From Escherichia phage vB_EcoM_112: a DNA stretch of 64,000 nucleotides. The notes beneath the pieces are model-generated. The model searched no databases. It was not told where the DNA came from and saw only the letters and a program-made list of their open reading frames with translations. Both the position numbers and the translations under genes were made by a program. Shown in pieces: positions 2,989 to 41,790 of this stretch (its first letter is position 1; each line of letters opens with the position of its first letter). The stretch lies in sequence record NC_024125.2; one strand, given 5' to 3'.

Positions 2989-3200
2989 AAAAGATTCCTT
3001 TTAATGTATCTTTTAGACCATTCTATCATATCATCATAATCTAAAAAGTATTCATCAAATTCAGCCATGCAAACAACGCCTTGTGCTGTTTTTGATGTAA
3101 TATAAATTATTCCAACATATCTAGAATCTTCTTCGGTATAATCAATATTTGCTGTGAATTCATCATTAATGTCAAATGTCGAAAACTTCACAATACGCAT
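2985..3200 (-). CDS. hypothetical small protein
   Basis: Track ORF 2985..3248 trimmed to internal ATG (MRIVKF) to reduce overlap with the neighbouring ORF; start uncertain. Confidence 0.4.
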   Translation of the reverse strand: MRIVKFSTFDINDEFTANIDYTEEDSRYVGIIYITSKTAQGVVCMAEFDEYFLDYDDMIEWSKRYIKRNLL

Positions 3201-23557: not shown

Positions 23558-24079
23558 TTATCCTTTCATTGAAGGCGTAACGGTTGTTAAATACTTAATC
23601 ATAGCTTCAGCTTCTGATTTTGATAATGAAATTTCTCCATTGTTTTGACGAATAGAAATAAAATCCGGATGACGGTCACCACCAGCTTTTAAAACACACA
23701 TATAAGTATCAACTTCGCCTTCAATATTTGAAATGATTGAAGCAGTTCCACATGAATGCGGTTTTTGATAAATCAATACAGCTTTTCTTCCACCGTTTGA
23801 CTGCTCATAGGCTTTTAATACATCAAGCAAATCAGTTCTTTTATCAATAGCTAAAATGTTGTTTTCATCTTCAATGTTAAATCCTTCGGATACTTCATAA
23901 AGCGTTACCCATAAATCACCAATGTCAATAACAGCATTTACTTTTCCACGGCTTTTAAGAGTATGACAAATTTTCTTGATTTCGTCATAACTCATTTTAA
24001 TAATATCATCTCCTTGACTAAGGAAGATGTCATTTTTAAATTCAACACGAATTAAACCACTTCCACTTGAAATAAACAT
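23558..24079 (-). CDS. hypothetical protein (tandem paralogue A)
   Basis: 173 aa; shares the GDL.V..Y...G.NIE.E block and C-terminal pattern with the next gene. Confidence 0.5.
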   Translation of the reverse strand: MFISSGSGLIRVEFKNDIFLSQGDDIIKMSYDEIKKICHTLKSRGKVNAVIDIGDLWVTLYEVSEGFNIEDENNILAIDKRTDLLDVLKAYEQSNGGRKAVLIYQKPHSCGTASIISNIEGEVDTYMCVLKAGGDRHPDFISIRQNNGEISLSKSEAEAMIKYLTTVTPSMKG

Positions 24080-24085
24080 ATTTCC

Positions 24086-24640
24086 TCACTTTGAAATCAT
24101 AGTTGGAATAACAGAATCAAGATAAGTCTTTAGTGCAATAGCTTCGTCTTTGGTAAATGTGACAATATGTGCTCGAGAATCATCAATTTGGCGAACAAGT
24201 ACGACATCGCCATCTTCATAAGAAGTCTTGACATCCAAAGTCGTAGTATAATTTGCAGCTACTGGATTAATAATGCTAGCACCGCGATCTTTAGCCCATT
24301 GAAGTTTAGCCTTTTCGGGTGTTTCGACTGTTTCAGATTCCAAGAATTCTTTCACCTTGGCAACGAATGTTGCCCAATTGTTGATAGAAAGACACATAAA
24401 TTCAGTTTCAATATTACCGCCGTAAAGGCCACGATAAAAACGAACTTGGAGGTCGCCTGTAATATTAGTTACACCGGTAACTCCTGAGGGAGCATAAGAT
24501 AAAATCGCAGCCAGTTCCATAGGAAGAATAGTAATACTATCGTCTTCCTGCGTCAGAACGTATACATTATCACGTTTTTCGATAACCAGGTCACCGAACA
24601 AATCAGTTGTTTCAATTACAGCTTTCATATTATTTACCAA
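24086..24640 (-). CDS. hypothetical protein (tandem paralogue B)
   Basis: 184 aa; paralogous to 23558..24079. Confidence 0.5.
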   Translation of the reverse strand: MVNNMKAVIETTDLFGDLVIEKRDNVYVLTQEDDSITILPMELAAILSYAPSGVTGVTNITGDLQVRFYRGLYGGNIETEFMCLSINNWATFVAKVKEFLESETVETPEKAKLQWAKDRGASIINPVAANYTTTLDVKTSYEDGDVVLVRQIDDSRAHIVTFTKDEAIALKTYLDSVIPTMISK

Positions 24641-24815
24641 TTAAAGTTTCAATATAAGAATCAAGATTTACTTTAGCTTCTTCCATAAGAGTTTTGTATT
24701 TAATCTTGTTAGCATGTCCGGAGAAAGCTGATTCATCAATAATTGTTGATGTATGAACAGCTTTACTATACGTCTCAATTAATTCTCTTAATTTAAAAGC
24801 CTGCTCACTTGTCAT
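24630..24815 (-). CDS. small helical protein (EQ..KL family)
   Basis: 61 aa, MTSEQAFKLRELIETY... Confidence 0.4.
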   Translation of the reverse strand: MTSEQAFKLRELIETYSKAVHTSTIIDESAFSGHANKIKYKTLMEEAKVNLDSYIETLIGK

Positions 24816-24979
24816 TACATACTCCTTTGAATAATATCAATAATGTTGTTCACCAGATTATAAGTAAACATTGGATAATTATATTGAATCATCACATACA
24901 CAACAAACAAAACTTTCATTCTCTTCTCCTTGACAGTTGGCAAGATTACTATACCATAACCTTGCCAACTTGTAAACCA

Positions 24980-25153
24980 TTAAATGACGTTTTCGATAAA
25001 ATTCTGAAGCTTTGTGTGAGCATCAACCATGATTTTCATTTCTTCCTTTGCGAAAGCTGTACCTCTTTCCCGAGAAGAACACTCATAGTCAGAAACTGCA
25101 TTAGCATATTCTTCAATTAGCTTCATTAAAAACATCTGCTTTTCAGTTTTCAT
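24980..25153 (-). CDS. small helical protein (57 aa, below the track cutoff)
   Basis: Hand-translated MKTEKQMFLMKLIEEYANAV...; RBS present. Confidence 0.3.
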   Translation of the reverse strand: MKTEKQMFLMKLIEEYANAVSDYECSSRERGTAFAKEEMKIMVDAHTKLQNFIENVI

Positions 25154-25337
25154 TATTCCACCTAATCATTTCAAGATATTGAACTAACTTAGCTTTAGAT
25201 TTATCCAAATCCCTTTTAGCTGATTCTATACCTTCGTATGAATATCCTTCACAATGCTCAACTGCCAATTGATATGAATCTATTTCAATATCACGTGCTA
25301 ATTTAATGATTTTTTCAAACTGTTCGCGTGTTAGCAT
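25143..25337 (-). CDS. small helical protein (EQ..KL family)
   Basis: 64 aa, MLTREQFEKIIKLARDIE... Confidence 0.4.
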   Translation of the reverse strand: MLTREQFEKIIKLARDIEIDSYQLAVEHCEGYSYEGIESAKRDLDKSKAKLVQYLEMIRWNNEN

Positions 25338-25339
25338 AA

Positions 25340-25522
25340 TTAAACTCTCGTATTATGATCGATAATTTCATCAAGAAACATATCTAACGCTTCTAAAGCA
25401 TTATCAACTTTAGCTTCAAGTTCATCAATACCTGATAAGGCAAAATTAATGCGCTCCTCATCTGCTTTGCGAATTAAAGCTACCAATTCTTTAAGTTTAT
25501 CTGCTTGTTCTATACTAATCAT
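25340..25522 (-). CDS. small helical protein (EQ..KL family)
   Basis: Start set at [13 protein letters not shown] (60 aa), ATGA-coupled to the upstream gene. Confidence 0.4.
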   Translation of the reverse strand: MISIEQADKLKELVALIRKADEERINFALSGIDELEAKVDNALEALDMFLDEIIDHNTRV

Positions 25523-25710
25523 TATTCCACCACATATGAAAGAGAGAATATTGCACACGCCATATGAGTTGCAACTTCATCACACATATTATAACGTTTC
25601 TTAAGAAGTTCTACAAGTTCTTCACTAGTAACTTCATCCATGTCGACGAAAAAATCACCATTAATGATGACGTAGATATTTCCTTCTTGATTAAGTGCTT
25701 CAATTTTCAT
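25522..25710 (-). CDS. small hypothetical protein
   Basis: Start set at [10 protein letters not shown], downstream of the promoter at 25739..25768 and preceded by GGAG. Confidence 0.4.
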
Positions 25711-25738
25711 GATGTTCTCCTCTTTATCCGATGGTTGT

Positions 25739-25768
25739 ATAGTATCACAGCTCAAATGGAAAGTAAAC
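25739..25768 (-). promoter_or_regulatory. T4-type early promoter
   Basis: GTTTAC, 18 nt, TACTAT. Confidence 0.55.
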
Positions 25769-25781
25769 CGGTAAAATGAAA

Positions 25782-25802
25782 AAAGTCTCCCGAAGGAGAC
25801 TA
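25782..25802 (-). terminator. intrinsic terminator
   Basis: GUCUCC-UUCG-GGAGAC hairpin plus UUUUUUC, immediately after the rI.-1-like gene. Confidence 0.55.
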
Positions 25803-25805
25803 ATG

Positions 25806-26192
25806 TTATTCGAGGGAAAGAAGATATTTACTTTGATAAAACATTCCAGTAATATCATCTATCGTACTTTGAATGGCTGGAGGCATTTCTTTGTAAATGC
25901 TGTTAGATTGGTCTAGTATACGATCAATCATTTTAATTGTGTCGGTAGGAAGTTTACTGGCATCCGGAATTGAAGGAGTGTATTTTCTACCAGAATACCC
26001 CAAATACTGCTCACCAAATTTATCAATCAAATCTGGCAACTCAGAGAAAATAAAATCGTATGCTTTGTGTCTAGCATAACTTTTAGTTTCAAAATGTGCA
26101 GAATGAAAATAAGCTTGTGCAGCCATTAATAAACCTAAGTATTCATCTGCCTTTGAAGGTTTTCCACTTTGTGAAAAGTCGCTGAATTTCAT
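25806..26192 (-). CDS. rI.-1-like conserved protein
   Basis: 128 aa, directly downstream of rI as in T4. Confidence 0.5.
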
Positions 26193-26482
26193 TCAGTCTC
26201 CAATTTAATGTTCATAATTCTAGCGTATGATTGTGCCATCTCCGCGCCTCGTTCTATACATTCAAAATCAGAAGAGCATGGGTCATTTTTATAGGTCGTT
26301 CTCATAAAACTATAGAATTGTTCAGACGATTCTACGCTTTTATTTTCAAAAAGCATATAAACGTGCCTAATACCAGATTCCATAAATTTATCAAAATGAG
26401 GATCGACATTCGCTTCAATCGATGGAGATAAAACAAATGACAATCCTAGCATGGCAAAAAGTGCCGTTGCTTTTAAGGCCAT
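26189..26482 (-). CDS. rI: lysis inhibition regulator rI (periplasmic antiholin-binding)
   Basis: 97 aa, N-terminal signal/SAR segment MALKATALFAMLGLSFVLSP; matches T4 RI. Confidence 0.8.
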   Translation of the reverse strand: MALKATALFAMLGLSFVLSPSIEANVDPHFDKFMESGIRHVYMLFENKSVESSEQFYSFMRTTYKNDPCSSDFECIERGAEMAQSYARIMNIKLETE

Positions 26483-26494
26483 AAAGGCCTCCTA

Positions 26495-26707
26495 TCATTT
26501 TTGTCCTGTATTTACTTTATGCCGATGCACGGCCTTAACTTTATCAAGGTATTTTTCAAAATTTCGCAATCTAGTATAGTCTGCCGGAGATTGATTGAGT
26601 GATACTTCTCGACGCAAAGCTGAAATGATATTTCCAACTTCCCTACGAATTTCATCTAATTGAAGCACAGTAAGATTGCGAAGTTGCTTTTCAGTTAATT
26701 GTAGCAT
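26495..26707 (-). CDS. hypothetical small protein
   Basis: 70 aa, basic. Confidence 0.45.
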
Positions 26708-26731
26708 ATATACCCCTTTAGTTAGATAAAC

Positions 26732-26739
26732 CTATTTAT
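26732..26739 (-). promoter_or_regulatory. late promoter -10 element (TATAAATA)
   Basis: Plus-strand TATTTATA is TATAAATA on the minus strand, upstream of the rI block. Confidence 0.4.
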
Positions 26740-26749
26740 AACTTTTGCA

Positions 26750-27331
26750 CTAACCGAGCTTTTTAGTTAATTCATTCCAATGTTTTCTACACAAAGAAAC
26801 ATAAATTTCATCACCAATACAGATTTGATTACCTTCTTTAACTGGTGTTCCATCTTCCATTAATCGAGCTGTCATAATCGCTTTTTTGCCGCAATGACAA
26901 ACTGCCTTTAGTTCAATAAGTTTATCTGCAATCGCTAAAAGTTCTTTAGAACCTTCAAACAATTTTCCAGCGAAATCAGTCCTTAATCCATAAGCCATAA
27001 CAGGAACATTATATGTATCAACAATTCGGCTCAATTGATGCACCTGTTCAGTTTTTAAAAACTGGGCTTCATCTACAAATACGCAATGAATATCTTTTTG
27101 TGCTTCAGCCCATTTATAGAACTCGAAAATATCCATATCATCTGTAATAATATTTGCTTCCTGCCTAATTCCAATGCGAGAAACGACTTCACAGACAGAA
27201 TCGCGAGTATCAATAGCAGGCTTAAGAACTAATACACTCATTCCACGTTCTTTATAATTATGTGCAGCAGTCAAAAGAGAAGCAGATTTTCCAGCATTCA
27301 TTGCTGCATAAGTAAAAATTAAACTCGCCAT
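26750..27331 (-). CDS. tk: thymidine kinase
   Basis: 193 aa, P-loop AAMNAGKS, C-terminal Zn-binding cysteines; T4 Tk. Confidence 0.9.
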   Translation of the reverse strand: MASLIFTYAAMNAGKSASLLTAAHNYKERGMSVLVLKPAIDTRDSVCEVVSRIGIRQEANIITDDMDIFEFYKWAEAQKDIHCVFVDEAQFLKTEQVHQLSRIVDTYNVPVMAYGLRTDFAGKLFEGSKELLAIADKLIELKAVCHCGKKAIMTARLMEDGTPVKEGNQICIGDEIYVSLCRKHWNELTKKLG

Positions 27332-27332
27332 C

Positions 27333-27521
27333 TTAGTCCTTAGTTAAATTTTCTAAATATGTTTCTAAATCATTTTCAGCTTTATCGATAGATTTTACTA
27401 ATTCGTAATATGTTTCGGCATCTCCATATTCAGAAGATATTTCAAAAGACAAATCCTTTTCTAAACTAATAATTTCACCAACTAAAAATAATATTTCGTT
27501 CTTTTGTTCGCGAGTAATCAT
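27333..27521 (-). CDS. small helical protein (EQ..KL family)
   Basis: 62 aa, MITREQKNEILFLVGEI... Confidence 0.4.
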   Translation of the reverse strand: MITREQKNEILFLVGEIISLEKDLSFEISSEYGDAETYYELVKSIDKAENDLETYLENLTKD

Positions 27522-27703
27522 AAGGAATTTATATAATTAATAAGTTCTTGTTCTTTATTATCGAATTCTTTAGAAAGTTCTTCGTACTCGTTTGCACTAA
27601 AAGGACCGCATTCATTACAAACTTTTTCCAATTCGCTATTTTTATCCATAACTTCGTGGATAAGAGAAAAGAGTTTGTCTTTTTGTTCTTTGCTTAGGCT
27701 CAT
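27518..27703 (-). CDS. small helical protein (EQ..KL family)
   Basis: 61 aa, MSLSKEQKDKLFSLIHEV... Confidence 0.4.
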   Translation of the reverse strand: MSLSKEQKDKLFSLIHEVMDKNSELEKVCNECGPFSANEYEELSKEFDNKEQELINYINSL

Positions 27704-27873
27704 ATATTAATTTCCAGAAGTTTTAAAATAATTCGCTTTTGCTTAAATATTTCCATAGTTAAATGATCAGTATCTTTTTGACCAATTCCAATGGCAAAAC
27801 CTTTATTAGCAGCGAGTTCAATTAAATTATCAAGTTCACGTAACACTTCGTACTGTAACTCAGAACTATTCAT
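27700..27873 (-). CDS. small helical protein (57 aa, below the track cutoff)
   Basis: Hand-translated MNSSELQYEVLRELDNLIEL...; ATGA-coupled on both sides. Confidence 0.3.
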   Translation of the reverse strand: MNSSELQYEVLRELDNLIELAANKGFAIGIGQKDTDHLTMEIFKQKRIILKLLEINI

Positions 27874-28082
27874 TTCGGTTTACCTTCTTTAACGAAATCT
27901 GGATAAGGATAAAATCCCGAATAAAATCCTTCACCTTTATGATTGACGCATCCTTTATTAGAACAATAGCACCAATAATCGAAATCACAAGCCATTTCAT
28001 CGTTGCATAAAGCAAAAACAACCGGCCACTTACACTTTTCACAATGGGCATTTTTAAGAATACTAGTTTGGCTCATAACCAT
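27870..28082 (-). CDS. Cys-rich small protein (putative zinc-binding)
   Basis: 70 aa with CEKC...C...C.C...C motifs. Confidence 0.45.
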   Translation of the reverse strand: MVMSQTSILKNAHCEKCKWPVVFALCNDEMACDFDYWCYCSNKGCVNHKGEGFYSGFYPYPDFVKEGKPK

Positions 28083-28300
28083 GTCACCTTTAAGCAGTAT
28101 TCTTCTACATGCTGTTTACGACCTTTCTTATCAATAAAGGTATATTCAACGAATGTTCCAATGTAGTCTTTATCTACATCATGTGGACTATTAATTGGAC
28201 ATTTAGTACGGCAAATGCGTTCCCATTGACGAATAATTACTGCCTTATTCTTTGGGTCATACGGATGTGGATAATGTATATTCATAATAACGGTTCCCAA
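28073..28300 (-). CDS. hypothetical small protein
   Basis: 75-aa ORF. Confidence 0.4.
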   Translation of the reverse strand: MGTVIMNIHYPHPYDPKNKAVIIRQWERICRTKCPINSPHDVDKDYIGTFVEYTFIDKKGRKQHVEEYCLKVTWL

Positions 28301-28749
28301 TCAACAATCACAATTTCTAATTTAGAGGAATATGTATCTAAAATCCCCTCAATAATATCCCAGTTCCCTTTACCTATGCCTGCACCAATCCTAGGCATAT
28401 AGATTGTAGGTTTAATCAGTTTATTTTCACCAAACTCATTTAATTCTAACATACAATTCATTAAAGCGGAATACTCAAAATTTGGCCCCGGTTGAAATTG
28501 AGTATAAAGATTAAAGCAGTAAGCTTTATGAGTCCTAAAGTATTTTTCATAGACTGAGTAAGAACCGAGTTTAGTTACATCGCCCCATTCTGTCTGTAAT
28601 TTATCAGCTTCCAAAATTTTAGGGAAAGCTTTGGTTAATTGACCCGCTACGCCTGAACCCATAGTATGAAAACAATTGCATCCATGCGCAATATTTTTAC
28701 CTTCAGCGAAAAGGGCGACAATATCGCCCTTGATATATTTTACAATCAT
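28282..28749 (-). CDS. macro-domain-like protein (putative ADP-ribose binding/processing)
   Basis: GDIVALFAEGKNIAHGCNCFHTMGSGVAG and IGAGIGKGNW blocks resemble macro-domain phosphate-binding loops. Confidence 0.5.
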   Translation of the reverse strand: MIVKYIKGDIVALFAEGKNIAHGCNCFHTMGSGVAGQLTKAFPKILEADKLQTEWGDVTKLGSYSVYEKYFRTHKAYCFNLYTQFQPGPNFEYSALMNCMLELNEFGENKLIKPTIYMPRIGAGIGKGNWDIIEGILDTYSSKLEIVIVDWEPLL

Positions 28750-40206: not shown

Positions 40207-40392
40207 CTATTCACCTTTAGAAATTTTATCCATAACAATAGCGATTAAACCAATTAAAAATGCTACTACAAGTGAAAACACATTTTCTGCTGTAGTCAAT
40301 AATCCACATATAAATCCAACAAACATTGAAAAACTAAAAGCGGAAGCAGAAATTGCAATAGCAACATTTCGAATTAATTCACAACGTTTCAT
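40207..40392 (-). CDS. small membrane protein
   Basis: 61 aa, two hydrophobic segments; preceded by an early promoter. Confidence 0.45.
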   Translation of the reverse strand: MKRCELIRNVAIAISASAFSFSMFVGFICGLLTTAENVFSLVVAFLIGLIAIVMDKISKGE

Positions 40393-40420
40393 TTTATTCT
40401 CCTCAGTAGTAGATAGGGTA

Positions 40421-40450
40421 ATAGTATCACTACCCTATCTAAAAGTAAAC
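40421..40450 (-). promoter_or_regulatory. T4-type early promoter in a palindromic cassette
   Basis: GTTTAC, 18 nt, TACTAT; the -10 sits inside the GATAGGGTA...TACCCTATC inverted repeat. Confidence 0.6.

Positions 40451-41092: not shown

Positions 41093-41789
<697 letters not shown>

Positions 41790-41790
<1 letters not shown>

What the first reader, a model, noticed from the sequence alone, without database searches (positions are those of the whole stretch)
24630..25710. Dispersed family of ~60-aa helical proteins sharing an M-x-(S/T)-x-EQ-x-x-K-L start
At least five ORFs (24630, 25143, 25340, 27333, 27518) and two sub-threshold ORFs (24980, 27700) encode 57 to 64-aa proteins that begin with a common pattern ([70 protein letters not shown]). 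Most are chained by ATGA overlaps. The copies lie in two clusters on either side of rI and tk. Such small diversified families are typical of host-takeover or inhibitor proteins.
Basis: seen in the sequence. Interest (0 to 1): 0.55.

Follow-up and report, generated by a model that had tools for sequence, protein, structure and literature searches.

The report
Known T4 helical-hairpin family (DUF7438)
Six of the seven small ORFs are a real family of about 60-residue two-helix proteins made early by T4-like phages, but the family is already catalogued (Pfam DUF7438; T4 genes tk.1, tk.2, mobD.2a, mobD.3, mobD.4) and its function is still unknown.

Summary
The window comes from a Tequatrovirus (97.9% identical to phage AV119 over the region). 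The listed ORFs are the T-even genes RB18ORF101, mobD.2a, mobD.3, mobD.4, tk.1 and tk.2. All six hit Pfam PF24219 (DUF7438) at 47-69 bits against a cut-off of 25. Each is also recovered by a profile built from the other five.

The seventh ORF (27700) is not a demonstrable member: hhalign gives 2% probability, although it is also predicted to be a helical hairpin.

AlphaFold2 predicts a two-helix antiparallel hairpin (pLDDT 91.5). The shared start fits a helix N-cap plus the first heptads of helix 1. Only the hydrophobic a/d core is shared between paralogs; surfaces are paralog-specific but conserved within orthologs (dN/dS 0.08-0.28 for five of the six).

In T4, four members are detected as proteins, and three genome-wide screens find the genes dispensable.

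Copy number varies from 0 to 6 among Tevenvirinae, with allelic replacement, a hypervariable loop and a hybrid gene. No solved structure, functional paper or informative fold match exists.

My best guess, at low confidence, is that these are accessory, stoichiometric protein-binding modules acting on host factors. The family is real but already known; interest is modest.

The parts
24630..24815 (-). Family member: RB18ORF101 orthologue, 61 aa, pI 6.1. Absent from T4.
   Evidence: Pfam DUF7438 57.8 bits; phrog_4859. 100% identical to the RB18 protein. AAGGAG ribosome-binding site and a TAATG junction with mobD.2. dN/dS 0.28. Present in 192 phage records.
24980..25153 (-). Family member: mobD.2a, 57 aa, pI 5.3.
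   Evidence: Pfam DUF7438 56.5 bits; phrog_2758. Overlaps the end of mobD.3 by 11 nt; AGGTGGA ribosome-binding site. dN/dS 0.11. Split by a frameshift in the T4 RefSeq record.
25143..25337 (-). Family member: mobD.3, 64 aa, pI 5.1.
   Evidence: Pfam DUF7438 62.4 bits; phrog_653. dN/dS 0.10. The T4 orthologue is detected as early RNA and early protein.
25340..25522 (-). Family member: mobD.4, 60 aa from the ATG at 25522, pI 4.3. This is the short-loop form.
   Evidence: Pfam DUF7438 47.4 bits. TAATG junction with mobD.5. 60-aa and 67-aa loop variants exist among relatives; dN/dS is 0.03 in helix 1 and 0.39 in the loop. The T4 orthologue is an early protein.
27333..27521 (-). Family member: tk.1, 62 aa, pI 4.2, net charge about -10.
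   Evidence: Pfam DUF7438 55.6 bits. 100% identical to T4 Tk.1. ATGA overlap with tk.2. T4 protein detected, classed as middle. Present in only 167 phage records.
27518..27703 (-). Family member: tk.2, 61 aa, pI 4.5.
   Evidence: Pfam DUF7438 69.2 bits. AlphaFold2 hairpin H5-30/H35-60, pLDDT 91.5. ATGA overlaps on both sides. dN/dS 0.08. A divergent allele (about 56% identity) replaces tk.2+tk.1 in 435 records.
27700..27873 (-). Not a demonstrable member: RB32ORF109c, 57 aa. A separate conserved small family, translationally chained to tk.2.
   Evidence: No DUF7438 hit; phrog_3452. hhalign against the family gives probability 2%. AlphaFold2 still predicts a two-helix hairpin, pLDDT 79.
25739..25801 (-). 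Intrinsic terminator hairpin (25801-25784 plus a T run), followed by an early-promoter-like GTTTAC (25768-25763) and TACTAT (25744-25739). This element opens the mobD.5 to mobD.1 transcription unit, which holds four family members.
   Evidence: Terminator scan. The element is conserved as far as Gaprivervirus, with GGTTTAC and TACTAT invariant. A mobD.5 promoter is used experimentally in T4 (PMC1702504). The promoter assignment here is an inference.
24948..24976 (-). Second promoter-like site (TTTACA, 17-nt spacer, TG-TATAGT) in the 60-nt gap between mobD.2a and mobD.2, upstream of ORF101.
   Evidence: Consensus scan, 10 of 12 matches with an extended -10. This is a consensus match only. The total number of promoter-like sites in the region is no higher than in shuffled sequence.

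Best explanation
**Identity (about 0.95 confident).** The six ORFs are the Tequatrovirus genes RB18ORF101, mobD.2a, mobD.3, mobD.4, tk.1 and tk.2. They are paralogues within Pfam family DUF7438.
- Each encodes a soluble, mostly acidic protein of 57-64 residues, predicted to fold as one antiparallel two-helix coiled-coil hairpin.
- The shared 'M-x-(S/T)-x-E-Q-x-x-K-L' start fits the N-cap box (S/T...E-Q) and first heptad positions of helix 1. This is a structural signature, not an active site.
- The family sits at two fixed genome positions: directly upstream of tk, and directly downstream of the mobD.5 early promoter. It has expanded and contracted there by local duplication, loss, recombination between neighbours and allele exchange.
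- The genes are transcribed early and packed so tightly that translational coupling is likely.

**Mechanism (inferred, about 0.3 confident).** Only the a/d hydrophobic core is common to all paralogues. Each paralogue keeps its own conserved surface. I therefore propose a common hairpin scaffold carrying different binding surfaces. Each protein would bury its hydrophobic stripe by pairing with itself, with a neighbouring paralogue, or with helices of a target protein. It would then act stoichiometrically as a modulator or inhibitor of a host factor early in infection. The benefit would be conditional: needed only on some hosts or under some conditions.
For: **Family membership.**
- Pfam DUF7438 at 47-69 bits against a cut-off of 25 for all six.
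- Leave-one-out recovery within the window.
- Orthology to T4 and RB18 genes.

**Fold.** AlphaFold2 gives pLDDT 91.5 and pTM 0.73, with helices at 5-30 and 35-60.

**Core versus surface.**
- Columns 2, 10, 13, 14, 17, 44, 51, 54, 55 and 58 are hydrophobic in all six paralogue groups, and E5 is invariant across them; Q6 is shared by five of the six consensus sequences (K in mobD.2a).
- Other columns differ between groups but are about 80% conserved within them.
- Codons at the shared start differ between paralogues, so the conservation is at protein level.

**Real genes.**
- dN/dS is 0.08-0.28 for five members.
- T4 MobD.3 and MobD.4 are early proteins; Tk.1 and Tk.2 are detected and classed as middle (PMC9697503 supplement).

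**Accessory nature.**
- The nrdC.11-mobD.3 block is deletable in T4 (PMC9825161).
- CRISPRi-ART knock-downs are 'Not Fit' (PMC11879866 supplement).
- Tn-seq classes them 'Non-essential' (bioRxiv 10.1101/2025.11.20.689424 supplement).

**Plasticity.**
- Copy number is 0-6 across Tevenvirinae, at the same two positions.
- tk.1 is in 167 records, ORF101 in 192 and the alternative tk.2 allele in 435.
- The MobD.4 loop is variable.
- A hybrid protein joins the tk.2 N-terminal half to the tk.1 C-terminal half (P0024).

**Restricted range.** Only 29 representative clusters reach E<=1e-3 among 1.84 billion proteins. Those that carry names are all from T-even-type phages; one hit (P0116) is a non-family repeat protein below the Pfam cut-off.
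Against: - There is no direct evidence for any binding partner, oligomeric state or phenotype.
- The one T4 Tn-seq conditional comparison I could read showed no significant depletion (adjusted p = 1).
- Fold searches return only generic hairpins with E>0.03, so structure gives no functional lead.
- The charge is not uniform: pI ranges from 4.2 to 6.1. A single shared mode of action such as DNA mimicry is therefore unlikely.
- The Tk.2 model used a six-sequence alignment. High confidence for a helical hairpin is easy to obtain and says nothing about partners.
- Strong purifying selection together with individual dispensability could equally reflect redundancy, or a role with phage partners.
Confidence: 0.45

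Rival explanations
1. Rop-like regulators. The hairpins form homodimeric four-helix bundles that bind RNA (or another nucleic-acid structure) and tune the stability or translation of phage early mRNAs.
For: The best whole-chain structural matches include ColE1 Rop/Rom: TM 0.86-0.94 normalised to the target, rmsd 1.1-1.4 A over 59 residues. Size and the a/d heptad pattern are the same.
Against: - Foldseek E-values are 1.5-3.6, so the match is not significant and is generic for any hairpin.
- There is no Pfam hit to the Rop family at E<=1.
- Three members carry a net charge of -7 to -10, which is unfavourable for RNA binding.
- Helix-1 surface residues are not conserved between paralogues.
Confidence: 0.08
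2. DNA-mimic inhibitors. The strongly acidic members (Tk.1, Tk.2, MobD.4) imitate the charge pattern of DNA and block host DNA-binding enzymes or nucleoid proteins. From my own knowledge, this is how lambda Gam, T7 Gp5.9, Ocr and T4 Arn work.
For: pI is 4.2-4.5 and net charge -7 to -10 in about 60 residues for three members. They are expressed early. A known counter-defence gene lies nearby: relatives carry an Acb2/Tad1-hairpin protein a few kb upstream.
Against: ORF101, MobD.2a and MobD.3 are only weakly acidic, at net -1 to -3. No similarity to any known DNA mimic appeared in PDB sequence or fold searches. Acidic composition is common among T4 early proteins, for example MobD.5 at pI 4.3.
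Confidence: 0.1
3. Partners of phage proteins. The hairpins are small subunits, chaperones or regulators of other phage-encoded proteins. Candidates include neighbouring gene products and coiled-coil assembly factors such as gp57A. They would not act on the host.
For: - Positions next to tk and rI.-1 are conserved across genera.
- Tight translational chaining is typical of genes whose products interact.
- Purifying selection is strong.
- A gp57A-like coiled-coil ORF in the window shares the start motif.
Against: - Members come and go while tk, rI and rI.-1 stay: Karamvirus, Winklervirus, Krischvirus and Tulanevirus loci have none.
- The genes are individually dispensable in T4.
- The gp57A-like ORF does not match the family profile.
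Confidence: 0.12
4. Evolutionary filler. These are duplicated ORFs in a hyperplastic region that persist through hitch-hiking with homing endonuclease traffic (mobD) and have little or no function of their own.
For: - No laboratory phenotype.
- Frequent loss, a pseudogene-like split of mobD.2a in the T4 reference, and a remnant in phage moha.
- Location next to mobD in T4.
- tk.1 shows more non-synonymous than synonymous differences in a very small sample.
Against: dN/dS is 0.08-0.28 for five members, with 94-100% protein identity across many isolates. The proteins accumulate in infected cells. Members are retained in four genera whose alleles are down to 30-50% identical.
Confidence: 0.07
5. 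Chance resemblance. Unrelated short amphipathic helical ORFs merely share a common helix-start motif.
For: The start motif also occurs in two unrelated ORFs of the window. A repeat protein, P0116, matches helix 1 only. ORF 27700 is also predicted as a hairpin, yet is unrelated in sequence.
Against: An independent curated Pfam model scores all six far above its cut-off over the full length. The leave-one-out test succeeds for all six. Orthologues occupy conserved positions in other genera.
Confidence: 0.02

Closest known systems
Pfam PF24219 (DUF7438); PHROGs 653, 2758 and 4859; T4 genes tk.1, tk.2, mobD.2a, mobD.3, mobD.4
   Same: The six ORFs are members and near-identical orthologues: 91.7-100% identity to the T4 proteins and 80.6-100% to the RB18 proteins. 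Length, hairpin fold and gene order are the same.
   Different: Nothing essential differs. This phage carries the largest complement seen (six). That includes ORF101, which T4 lacks, and an intact mobD.2a, which is split in the T4 reference record.
ColE1 Rop/Rom (63-aa helical hairpin that dimerises into a four-helix bundle and binds RNA kissing complexes)
   Same: Size, antiparallel two-helix topology and a/d heptad core. TM 0.86-0.94, rmsd 1.1-1.4 A.
   Different: No sequence relationship and non-significant Foldseek E-values. The phage proteins are more acidic, and the helix-1 surface is not conserved among paralogues. Dimerisation and RNA binding are untested.
Small phage-encoded helical inhibitors of host proteins, for example lambda Kil, T7 Gp0.4, T7 Gp5.9 and lambda Gam (named from my own knowledge, not tested here)
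   Same: Very small, helical, early-expressed and dispensable in the laboratory. Located in variable early regions.
   Different: No detectable homology to any of them in the PDB sequence or fold searches. Those proteins are single genes with known targets. This is a multi-copy family with no known target.
RB32ORF109c family (phrog_3452), the ORF at 27700
   Same: Same length class, same predicted two-helix hairpin and same gene chain. It is conserved next to DUF7438 genes in a distant relative (L004).
   Different: No profile-profile similarity (probability 2%). It lacks the T-x-E-Q start and the Y/F-I/L-E-x-L C-terminal signature.

Membership tests
Pfam DUF7438 (PF24219) | Full-length match to the 57-position Pfam model above the gathering score of 25 bits | tested here: met
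   The six ORFs score 47.4-69.2 bits and cover model positions 1-56/57. ORF 27700-27873, rI.1 and mobD.5 give no hit.
Pfam DUF7438 (PF24219) | Stand-alone protein of about 60 residues made of two antiparallel helices | tested here: met
   Lengths are 57-64 aa. The AlphaFold2 model of Tk.2, built with the six-paralogue alignment, has helices at 5-30 and 35-60 and pLDDT 91.5. A heptad a/d pattern is present in all groups.
Pfam DUF7438 (PF24219) | Occurrence in T-even-type phages at the tk-upstream and rI.-1-downstream positions | tested here: met
   The same two positions are used in Tequatrovirus, Gaprivervirus, Mosigvirus, Jiaodavirus and two uncultured contigs. Named cluster members are all T-even-type phages.
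Pfam DUF7438 (PF24219), as applied to ORF 27700-27873 | Sequence or profile similarity to the family | tested here: not met
   No Pfam hit. Family HMM E 0.7. hhalign of an 11-sequence alignment against the 23-sequence family alignment gives probability 2.1%.
Rop/Rom | Sequence membership of the Rop family | tested here: not met
   No Rop hit among Pfam matches at E<=1. PDB profile search finds no Rop chain at E<=10.
Rop/Rom | Hairpin fold superposable on Rop | tested here: inconclusive
   TM 0.86-0.94 and rmsd 1.1-1.4 A, but Foldseek E is 1.5-3.6. Many unrelated and designed hairpins score equally well.
Rop/Rom | Homodimeric four-helix bundle that binds RNA | not testable with these tools
   Only single-chain prediction was available, and there are no binding data.
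'Helicase loader' (label of phrog_4859, propagated to RefSeq for ORF101) | A helicase-loading domain of the gp59 or DnaC type | tested here: not met
   ORF101 has no such Pfam or NCBIfam hit. It is 61 aa and belongs to DUF7438. The closest genome, AV119, annotates a separate gene (651 nt, about 217 aa) as 'DNA helicase loader' elsewhere (L025:1718-2371).
'Molybdopterin-guanine dinucleotide biosynthesis protein MobD' (RefSeq name on MobD.4-type proteins) | Similarity to MobA/MobB-type enzymes | tested here: not met
   No Pfam or NCBIfam hit other than DUF7438. The name appears to derive from the T4 gene symbol mobD, a homing endonuclease.
DNA-mimic proteins (functional class) | Dense negative surface charge | tested here: inconclusive
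   Net charge is -7 to -10 for MobD.4, Tk.1 and Tk.2, but only -1 to -3 for ORF101, MobD.2a and MobD.3. The spatial charge pattern was not analysed.
Anti-phage defence proteins (PADLOC) | Match to a defence-system model | tested here: not met
   No hit better than E 0.02.

The most novel reading that the evidence does not exclude
DUF7438 is an expandable alpha-hairpin inhibitor scaffold. Each paralogue neutralises a different host factor, such as a defence-system component. The cassette-like tk.2 allele replacement, the hypervariable MobD.4 loop and the copy-number differences between phages would then be the footprint of an arms race that sets host range among T-even phages.
Probability: 0.2. 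Interest if true: 0.6.

Novelty: already known. Interest (0 to 1): 0.3.

Why it matters
T4 is the best-studied lytic phage, yet about half of its genes have no assigned function, and many of those are small early genes like these.

This family offers a compact test case. It has up to six copies per genome. Four T4 orthologues are shown to be translated. It is under purifying selection, yet is dispensable in three genome-wide T4 laboratory screens.

If the members turn out to be host-specific inhibitors, they would add a family of minimal binding scaffolds to the anti-defence and host-takeover repertoire. They would also help explain host-range differences among therapeutic T4-like phages.

As it stands, the result mainly tidies the record:
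- It defines which ORFs belong and shows the 27700 ORF does not.
- It explains the shared start as a structural motif.
- It flags two misleading names that propagate through public records ('helicase loader' and 'molybdopterin-guanine dinucleotide biosynthesis protein MobD').

Tried and rejected
1. **Extra members in the window.** A family HMM run against all stop-to-stop ORFs found none. The best other ORF, 40207-40434, scored E 0.067 and has no Pfam support.
2. **Extra members elsewhere in the genome.** A scan of AV119 positions 1-110,000 found only a borderline split match to a pseT.1-like ORF (E 0.005), which Pfam does not support.
3. **rI.1 and mobD.5 as members.** rI.1 starts MLQLTEKQL, but both are rejected at E 0.2 and 0.9.
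4. **ORF 27700 as a member.** Rejected by hhalign, despite its hairpin prediction. Its model matches nothing informative in BFVD.
5. **Solved structures.** Nothing was found by sequence. Fold search of PDB and BFVD gave only generic or uncharacterised hairpins.
6. **Domain fusions as functional hints.** P0125, P0131, P0070 and P0036 carry no informative extra domain, and some look like frameshift or assembly chimeras. P0116 is a repeat protein below the Pfam cut-off.
7. **NCBIfam and PADLOC.** No hits.
8. **Literature.** Searches for DUF7438, the PHROG and Pfam identifiers, UniProt accessions and gene names found no functional study.
9. **The search for related loci with the family alignment.** It failed because no stretch was conserved enough. 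With Tk.1 alone it returned only three loci.
10. **Dimer prediction.** Not possible, because only single natural sequences may be submitted.
11. **Miller et al. 2003 T4 genome review.** Not held in the library.
Full report
**Source and gene identities**

The region 24000-28400 is 97.9% identical to Escherichia phage AV119 and 97.6% identical to RB18, both Tequatrovirus. In total, 661 phage records match it.

| Window coordinates | Gene | Note |
|---|---|---|
| 24630-24815 | RB18ORF101 | no counterpart in T4 |
| 24980-25153 | mobD.2a | |
| 25143-25337 | mobD.3 | |
| 25340-25522 | mobD.4 | ATG start, 60 aa |
| 27333-27521 | tk.1 | |
| 27518-27703 | tk.2 | |
| 27700-27873 | RB32ORF109c | no counterpart in T4 |

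**Is the family real?**

Yes, for six of the seven ORFs.
- Pfam-A places all six in PF24219 (DUF7438, a 57-position model). E-values are 2.5e-12 to 3.9e-19 and scores 47-69 bits, against a gathering score of 25. The matches run end to end.
- PHROGs splits them into phrog_653 (mobD.3, mobD.4, tk.1, tk.2), phrog_2758 (mobD.2a) and phrog_4859 (ORF101), with weaker cross-hits between these families.
- As a check that uses only this window, I built profiles from five members and searched all 910 stop-to-stop ORFs. The omitted member was always the best non-training hit, at E 8.6e-5 to 2.2e-3. The best unrelated ORF scored 0.025-1.4.

The seventh ORF (27700) fails every test.
- It has no Pfam hit.
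- It scores E 0.7 against the family HMM.
- hhalign probability is 2.1% between an 11-sequence alignment of its homologues and a 23-sequence family alignment.

rI.1 also starts M-L-Q-L-T-E-K-Q-L, but neither it nor mobD.5 is a member.

No further member exists in the window. None exists in the other 110 kb of the closest genome either. The only exception is a borderline split match to a pseT.1-like ORF that Pfam does not support.

**The shared start**

The motif alone is weak evidence. ^M.{0,3}[ST].EQ matches seven of 326 ATG-started ORFs of 40-100 aa in the window. Five of these are family members; mobD.2a (MKTEKQ...) does not match. Two are unrelated, one of them a gp57A-like coiled-coil ORF.

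In the AlphaFold2 model of Tk.2 the first helix begins at residue 5, right after the S/T. The S/T-x-E-Q therefore fits a helix N-cap box. The following K-L-x-x-L-I supplies the first a/d heptad positions.

The six genes use different codons for these residues: GAG or GAA, CAG or CAA, and ACA, ACT, AGT or AGC. The constraint is therefore on the protein and not on the mRNA.

**Gene packing**

- The tk cluster has three ATGA overlaps: ORF110c/ORF109c, ORF109c/tk.2 and tk.2/tk.1.
- In the mobD cluster the junctions are as follows:
  - TAATG at mobD.5/mobD.4 and at mobD.2/ORF101.
  - A 2-nt gap at mobD.4/mobD.3.
  - An 11-nt overlap at mobD.3/mobD.2a.
- Every member has a purine-rich ribosome-binding site.
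- Upstream of mobD.5 there is an intrinsic terminator (25801-25784), followed by GTTTAC ... TACTAT. This module is conserved as far as Gaprivervirus, while the spacer sequence diverges.
- A mobD.5 promoter is used as an internal control in T4 primer-extension work (PMC1702504).
- A second promoter-like site lies between mobD.2a and mobD.2. It is a consensus match only.

**Structure**

AlphaFold2, run with the six-paralogue alignment, gives Tk.2 as a two-helix antiparallel hairpin. Helices span 5-30 and 35-60, with mean pLDDT 91.5 and pTM 0.73.

Aligning 120 family sequences to the profile showed the following:
- Columns 2, 10, 13, 14, 17, 44, 51, 54, 55 and 58 are hydrophobic in all six paralogue groups.
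- E5 is invariant across the six group consensus sequences, and Q6 is shared by five of them (K in mobD.2a).
- Almost every other column differs between groups, yet is about 80% conserved within a group.

This is the pattern expected of a common scaffold with paralogue-specific surfaces.

The proteins are soluble and acidic, but unevenly so: pI is 4.2-4.5 for Tk.1, MobD.4 and Tk.2, and 5.1-6.1 for the other three.

**Comparison with known structures and families**

- No PDB chain is related by sequence; the best E is 0.04, to a designed coiled coil.
- Foldseek against PDB gives no hit with E below 0.3. Whole-chain matches include Rop/Rom (TM 0.86-0.94, rmsd 1.1-1.4 A), alongside many designed and unrelated hairpins.
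- BFVD returns only uncharacterised phage proteins of 55-60 aa, at E>=0.03.
- NCBIfam and PADLOC give nothing.
- The names 'helicase loader' and 'molybdopterin-guanine dinucleotide biosynthesis protein MobD' attached to these proteins in public records have no support.

**Distribution and dynamics**

A word-indexed search of 5.8 billion proteins found 113 clusters. Each is an orthologue (>=60% identity) of one of the six paralogues.

An exhaustive profile search of 1.84 billion representatives found only 29 clusters at E<=1e-3. Those with names come from Gaprivervirus and Mosigvirus.

I fetched the tk neighbourhood from representative genera and scanned it with the family HMM and with Pfam.

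| Phage group | Members found |
|---|---|
| This window, RB18, Manna | 6 |
| T4 | 4, plus a split mobD.2a |
| Gaprivervirus | 3-4 |
| Mosigvirus moha | 2, plus a remnant |
| Jiaodavirus KP1079 | 1 |
| Two uncultured contigs | 2 and 2-3 |
| Karamvirus, Winklervirus, Pseudotevenvirus, Krischvirus, Tulanevirus (within 8 kb of tk) | 0 |

The members always sit directly upstream of tk, or after the rI.-1/mobD.5 module.

Within Tequatrovirus there are two arrangements upstream of tk.
- The T4 type has tk.2+tk.1; tk.1 DNA is found in 167 records.
- The other type has a single divergent tk.2 allele, about 56% identical in protein and nearly the same as the Gaprivervirus allele. It is found in 435 records.

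ORF101 is present in 192 records. The six-copy complement of this window is therefore the maximum seen and a minority state.

Two further observations:
- One phage (UFV-AREG1) carries a hybrid of the tk.2 N-terminal helix and the tk.1 C-terminal helix (P0024).
- MobD.4 has 60-aa and 67-aa loop forms, with several loop sequences between invariant helices.

**Selection**

Nei-Gojobori estimates on 4-9 distinct Tequatrovirus sequences per gene gave these values.

| Gene | dN/dS |
|---|---|
| tk.2 | 0.08 |
| mobD.3 | 0.10 |
| mobD.2a | 0.11 |
| mobD.4 | 0.23 (helix 1: 0.03; loop: 0.39) |
| ORF101 | 0.28 |

tk.1 showed more non-synonymous than synonymous change. That rests on very few substitutions, and I do not lean on it.

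**Experimental record in T4**

- Time-resolved proteomics and transcriptomics list MobD.3 and MobD.4 as early RNA and early protein. Tk.1 and Tk.2 are listed as early RNA and middle protein (PMC9697503 supplement). Translation is therefore established for four orthologues.
- The nrdC.11-mobD.3 block can be deleted (PMC9825161).
- CRISPRi-ART knock-downs of mobD.2a, mobD.3, mobD.4, tk.1 and tk.2 are all 'Not Fit' (PMC11879866 supplement).
- Transposon sequencing classes all five as non-essential, with 91-100% of TA sites hit. The conditional comparison I could read shows no significant depletion (bioRxiv 10.1101/2025.11.20.689424 supplement).
- No paper in the library mentions DUF7438, the PHROG identifiers or a function for these genes.

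**Interpretation**

What is shown:
- A real, narrow, phage-specific paralogous family of two-helix hairpin proteins.
- Expressed early and under purifying selection.
- Individually dispensable in the laboratory.
- Evolutionarily plastic in copy number and alleles.

What is inferred:
- A 25-residue antiparallel hairpin whose only shared feature is its a/d stripe is likely to bury that stripe further. It could do so by self- or hetero-pairing into a four-helix bundle, or by docking on a partner (general coiled-coil knowledge).
- The conserved but paralogue-specific surfaces suggest different partners.
- With the early timing and accessory behaviour, the most likely role is stoichiometric modulation of host factors that matter only on some hosts. 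I put this at about 0.3.

The rivals are Rop-like RNA binding, DNA mimicry by the acidic members, partnership with phage proteins, and near-neutral filler. None is excluded, but each has specific evidence against it, as set out in the rival explanations section.

**Verdict**

However, it is already annotated in T4 and catalogued as Pfam DUF7438. The finding is therefore a rediscovery of a known family of unknown function, not a new kind of element.

Noticed in passing
window 27700-27873 (-): RB32ORF109c is a separate conserved 57-aa family (phrog_3452), also predicted as a two-helix hairpin (pLDDT 79). A 32%-identical homologue sits in the same position in a distant T4-like contig (L004:9831-10004). 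Function unknown.
   Followed up: yes
window 27870-28082 (-): A Cys-rich 70-aa ORF (RB32ORF110c; CEKCKW...CNDEMACDFDYWCYCSNKGC) looks like a small zinc-binding protein. It has a clear homologue in Krischvirus phage Makalu (L016:7497-7715).
   Followed up: no
window 24815-24919 (-): mobD.2 encodes a 34-aa hydrophobic peptide (MKVLFVVYVMIQYNYPMFTYNLV...). It is conserved in Mosigvirus moha (L010:9693-9803) and may be a membrane micro-protein. It lies between two DUF7438 genes.
   Followed up: no
public records matched: Names propagate without support. DUF7438 proteins carry 'helicase loader' and 'molybdopterin-guanine dinucleotide biosynthesis protein MobD'. Small ORFs next to modA in AV119 are called 'molybdenum ABC transporter ModA'. 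These names appear to come from gene-symbol confusion.
   Followed up: partly
L019-L023 (upstream of tk) compared with window 27333-27703: Two sharply different alleles occupy the slot upstream of a nearly identical tk gene within one genus. One is tk.2+tk.1 (tk.1 in 167 records). The other is a single tk.2 allele, about 56% identical (435 records), that matches the Gaprivervirus version. This looks like cassette-like exchange.
   Followed up: partly
L002 (T4 NC_000866) 2994-3178 (-): In the T4 reference record mobD.2a is split by a frameshift into a 38-aa ORF plus a remnant. A 2025 Tn-seq study's T4 annotation lists an intact 174-nt mobD.2a. This is either strain variation or an old sequencing error.
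   Followed up: no
protein P0024 (phage UFV-AREG1), P0071: These natural hybrid proteins join helix 1 of Tk.2 to helix 2 of Tk.1. That implies recombination between the adjacent paralogues.
   Followed up: no
protein P0116 (936 aa, metagenomic): The C-terminal half consists of more than 13 tandem 23-residue repeats (LSSEQRSTLTELLHTIESTSETT) that resemble helix 1 of the family. It is below the Pfam cut-off (17 bits), so this is probably motif-level convergence.
   Followed up: partly
window 41548-41790 (-): An 80-aa gp57A-like coiled-coil ORF starts [10 protein letters not shown], so it shares the helix-start motif without belonging to the family.
   Followed up: partly
window 25739-25801 (-): A terminator hairpin and an early-promoter-like element form a compact module between rI.-1 and mobD.5. 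It is conserved as far as Gaprivervirus, with GGTTTAC and TACTAT invariant and the stem sequence changed.
   Followed up: partly
L024:38696-38923 (-) (AV119, outside the window): A 75-aa pseT.1-like ORF begins MISWHQFEHLKGLI and ends ...DLHDYIQSLVEKK. It gives a split borderline match to the family profile (E 0.005) but has no Pfam hit. It may be a very distant relative with a longer middle section.
   Followed up: partly
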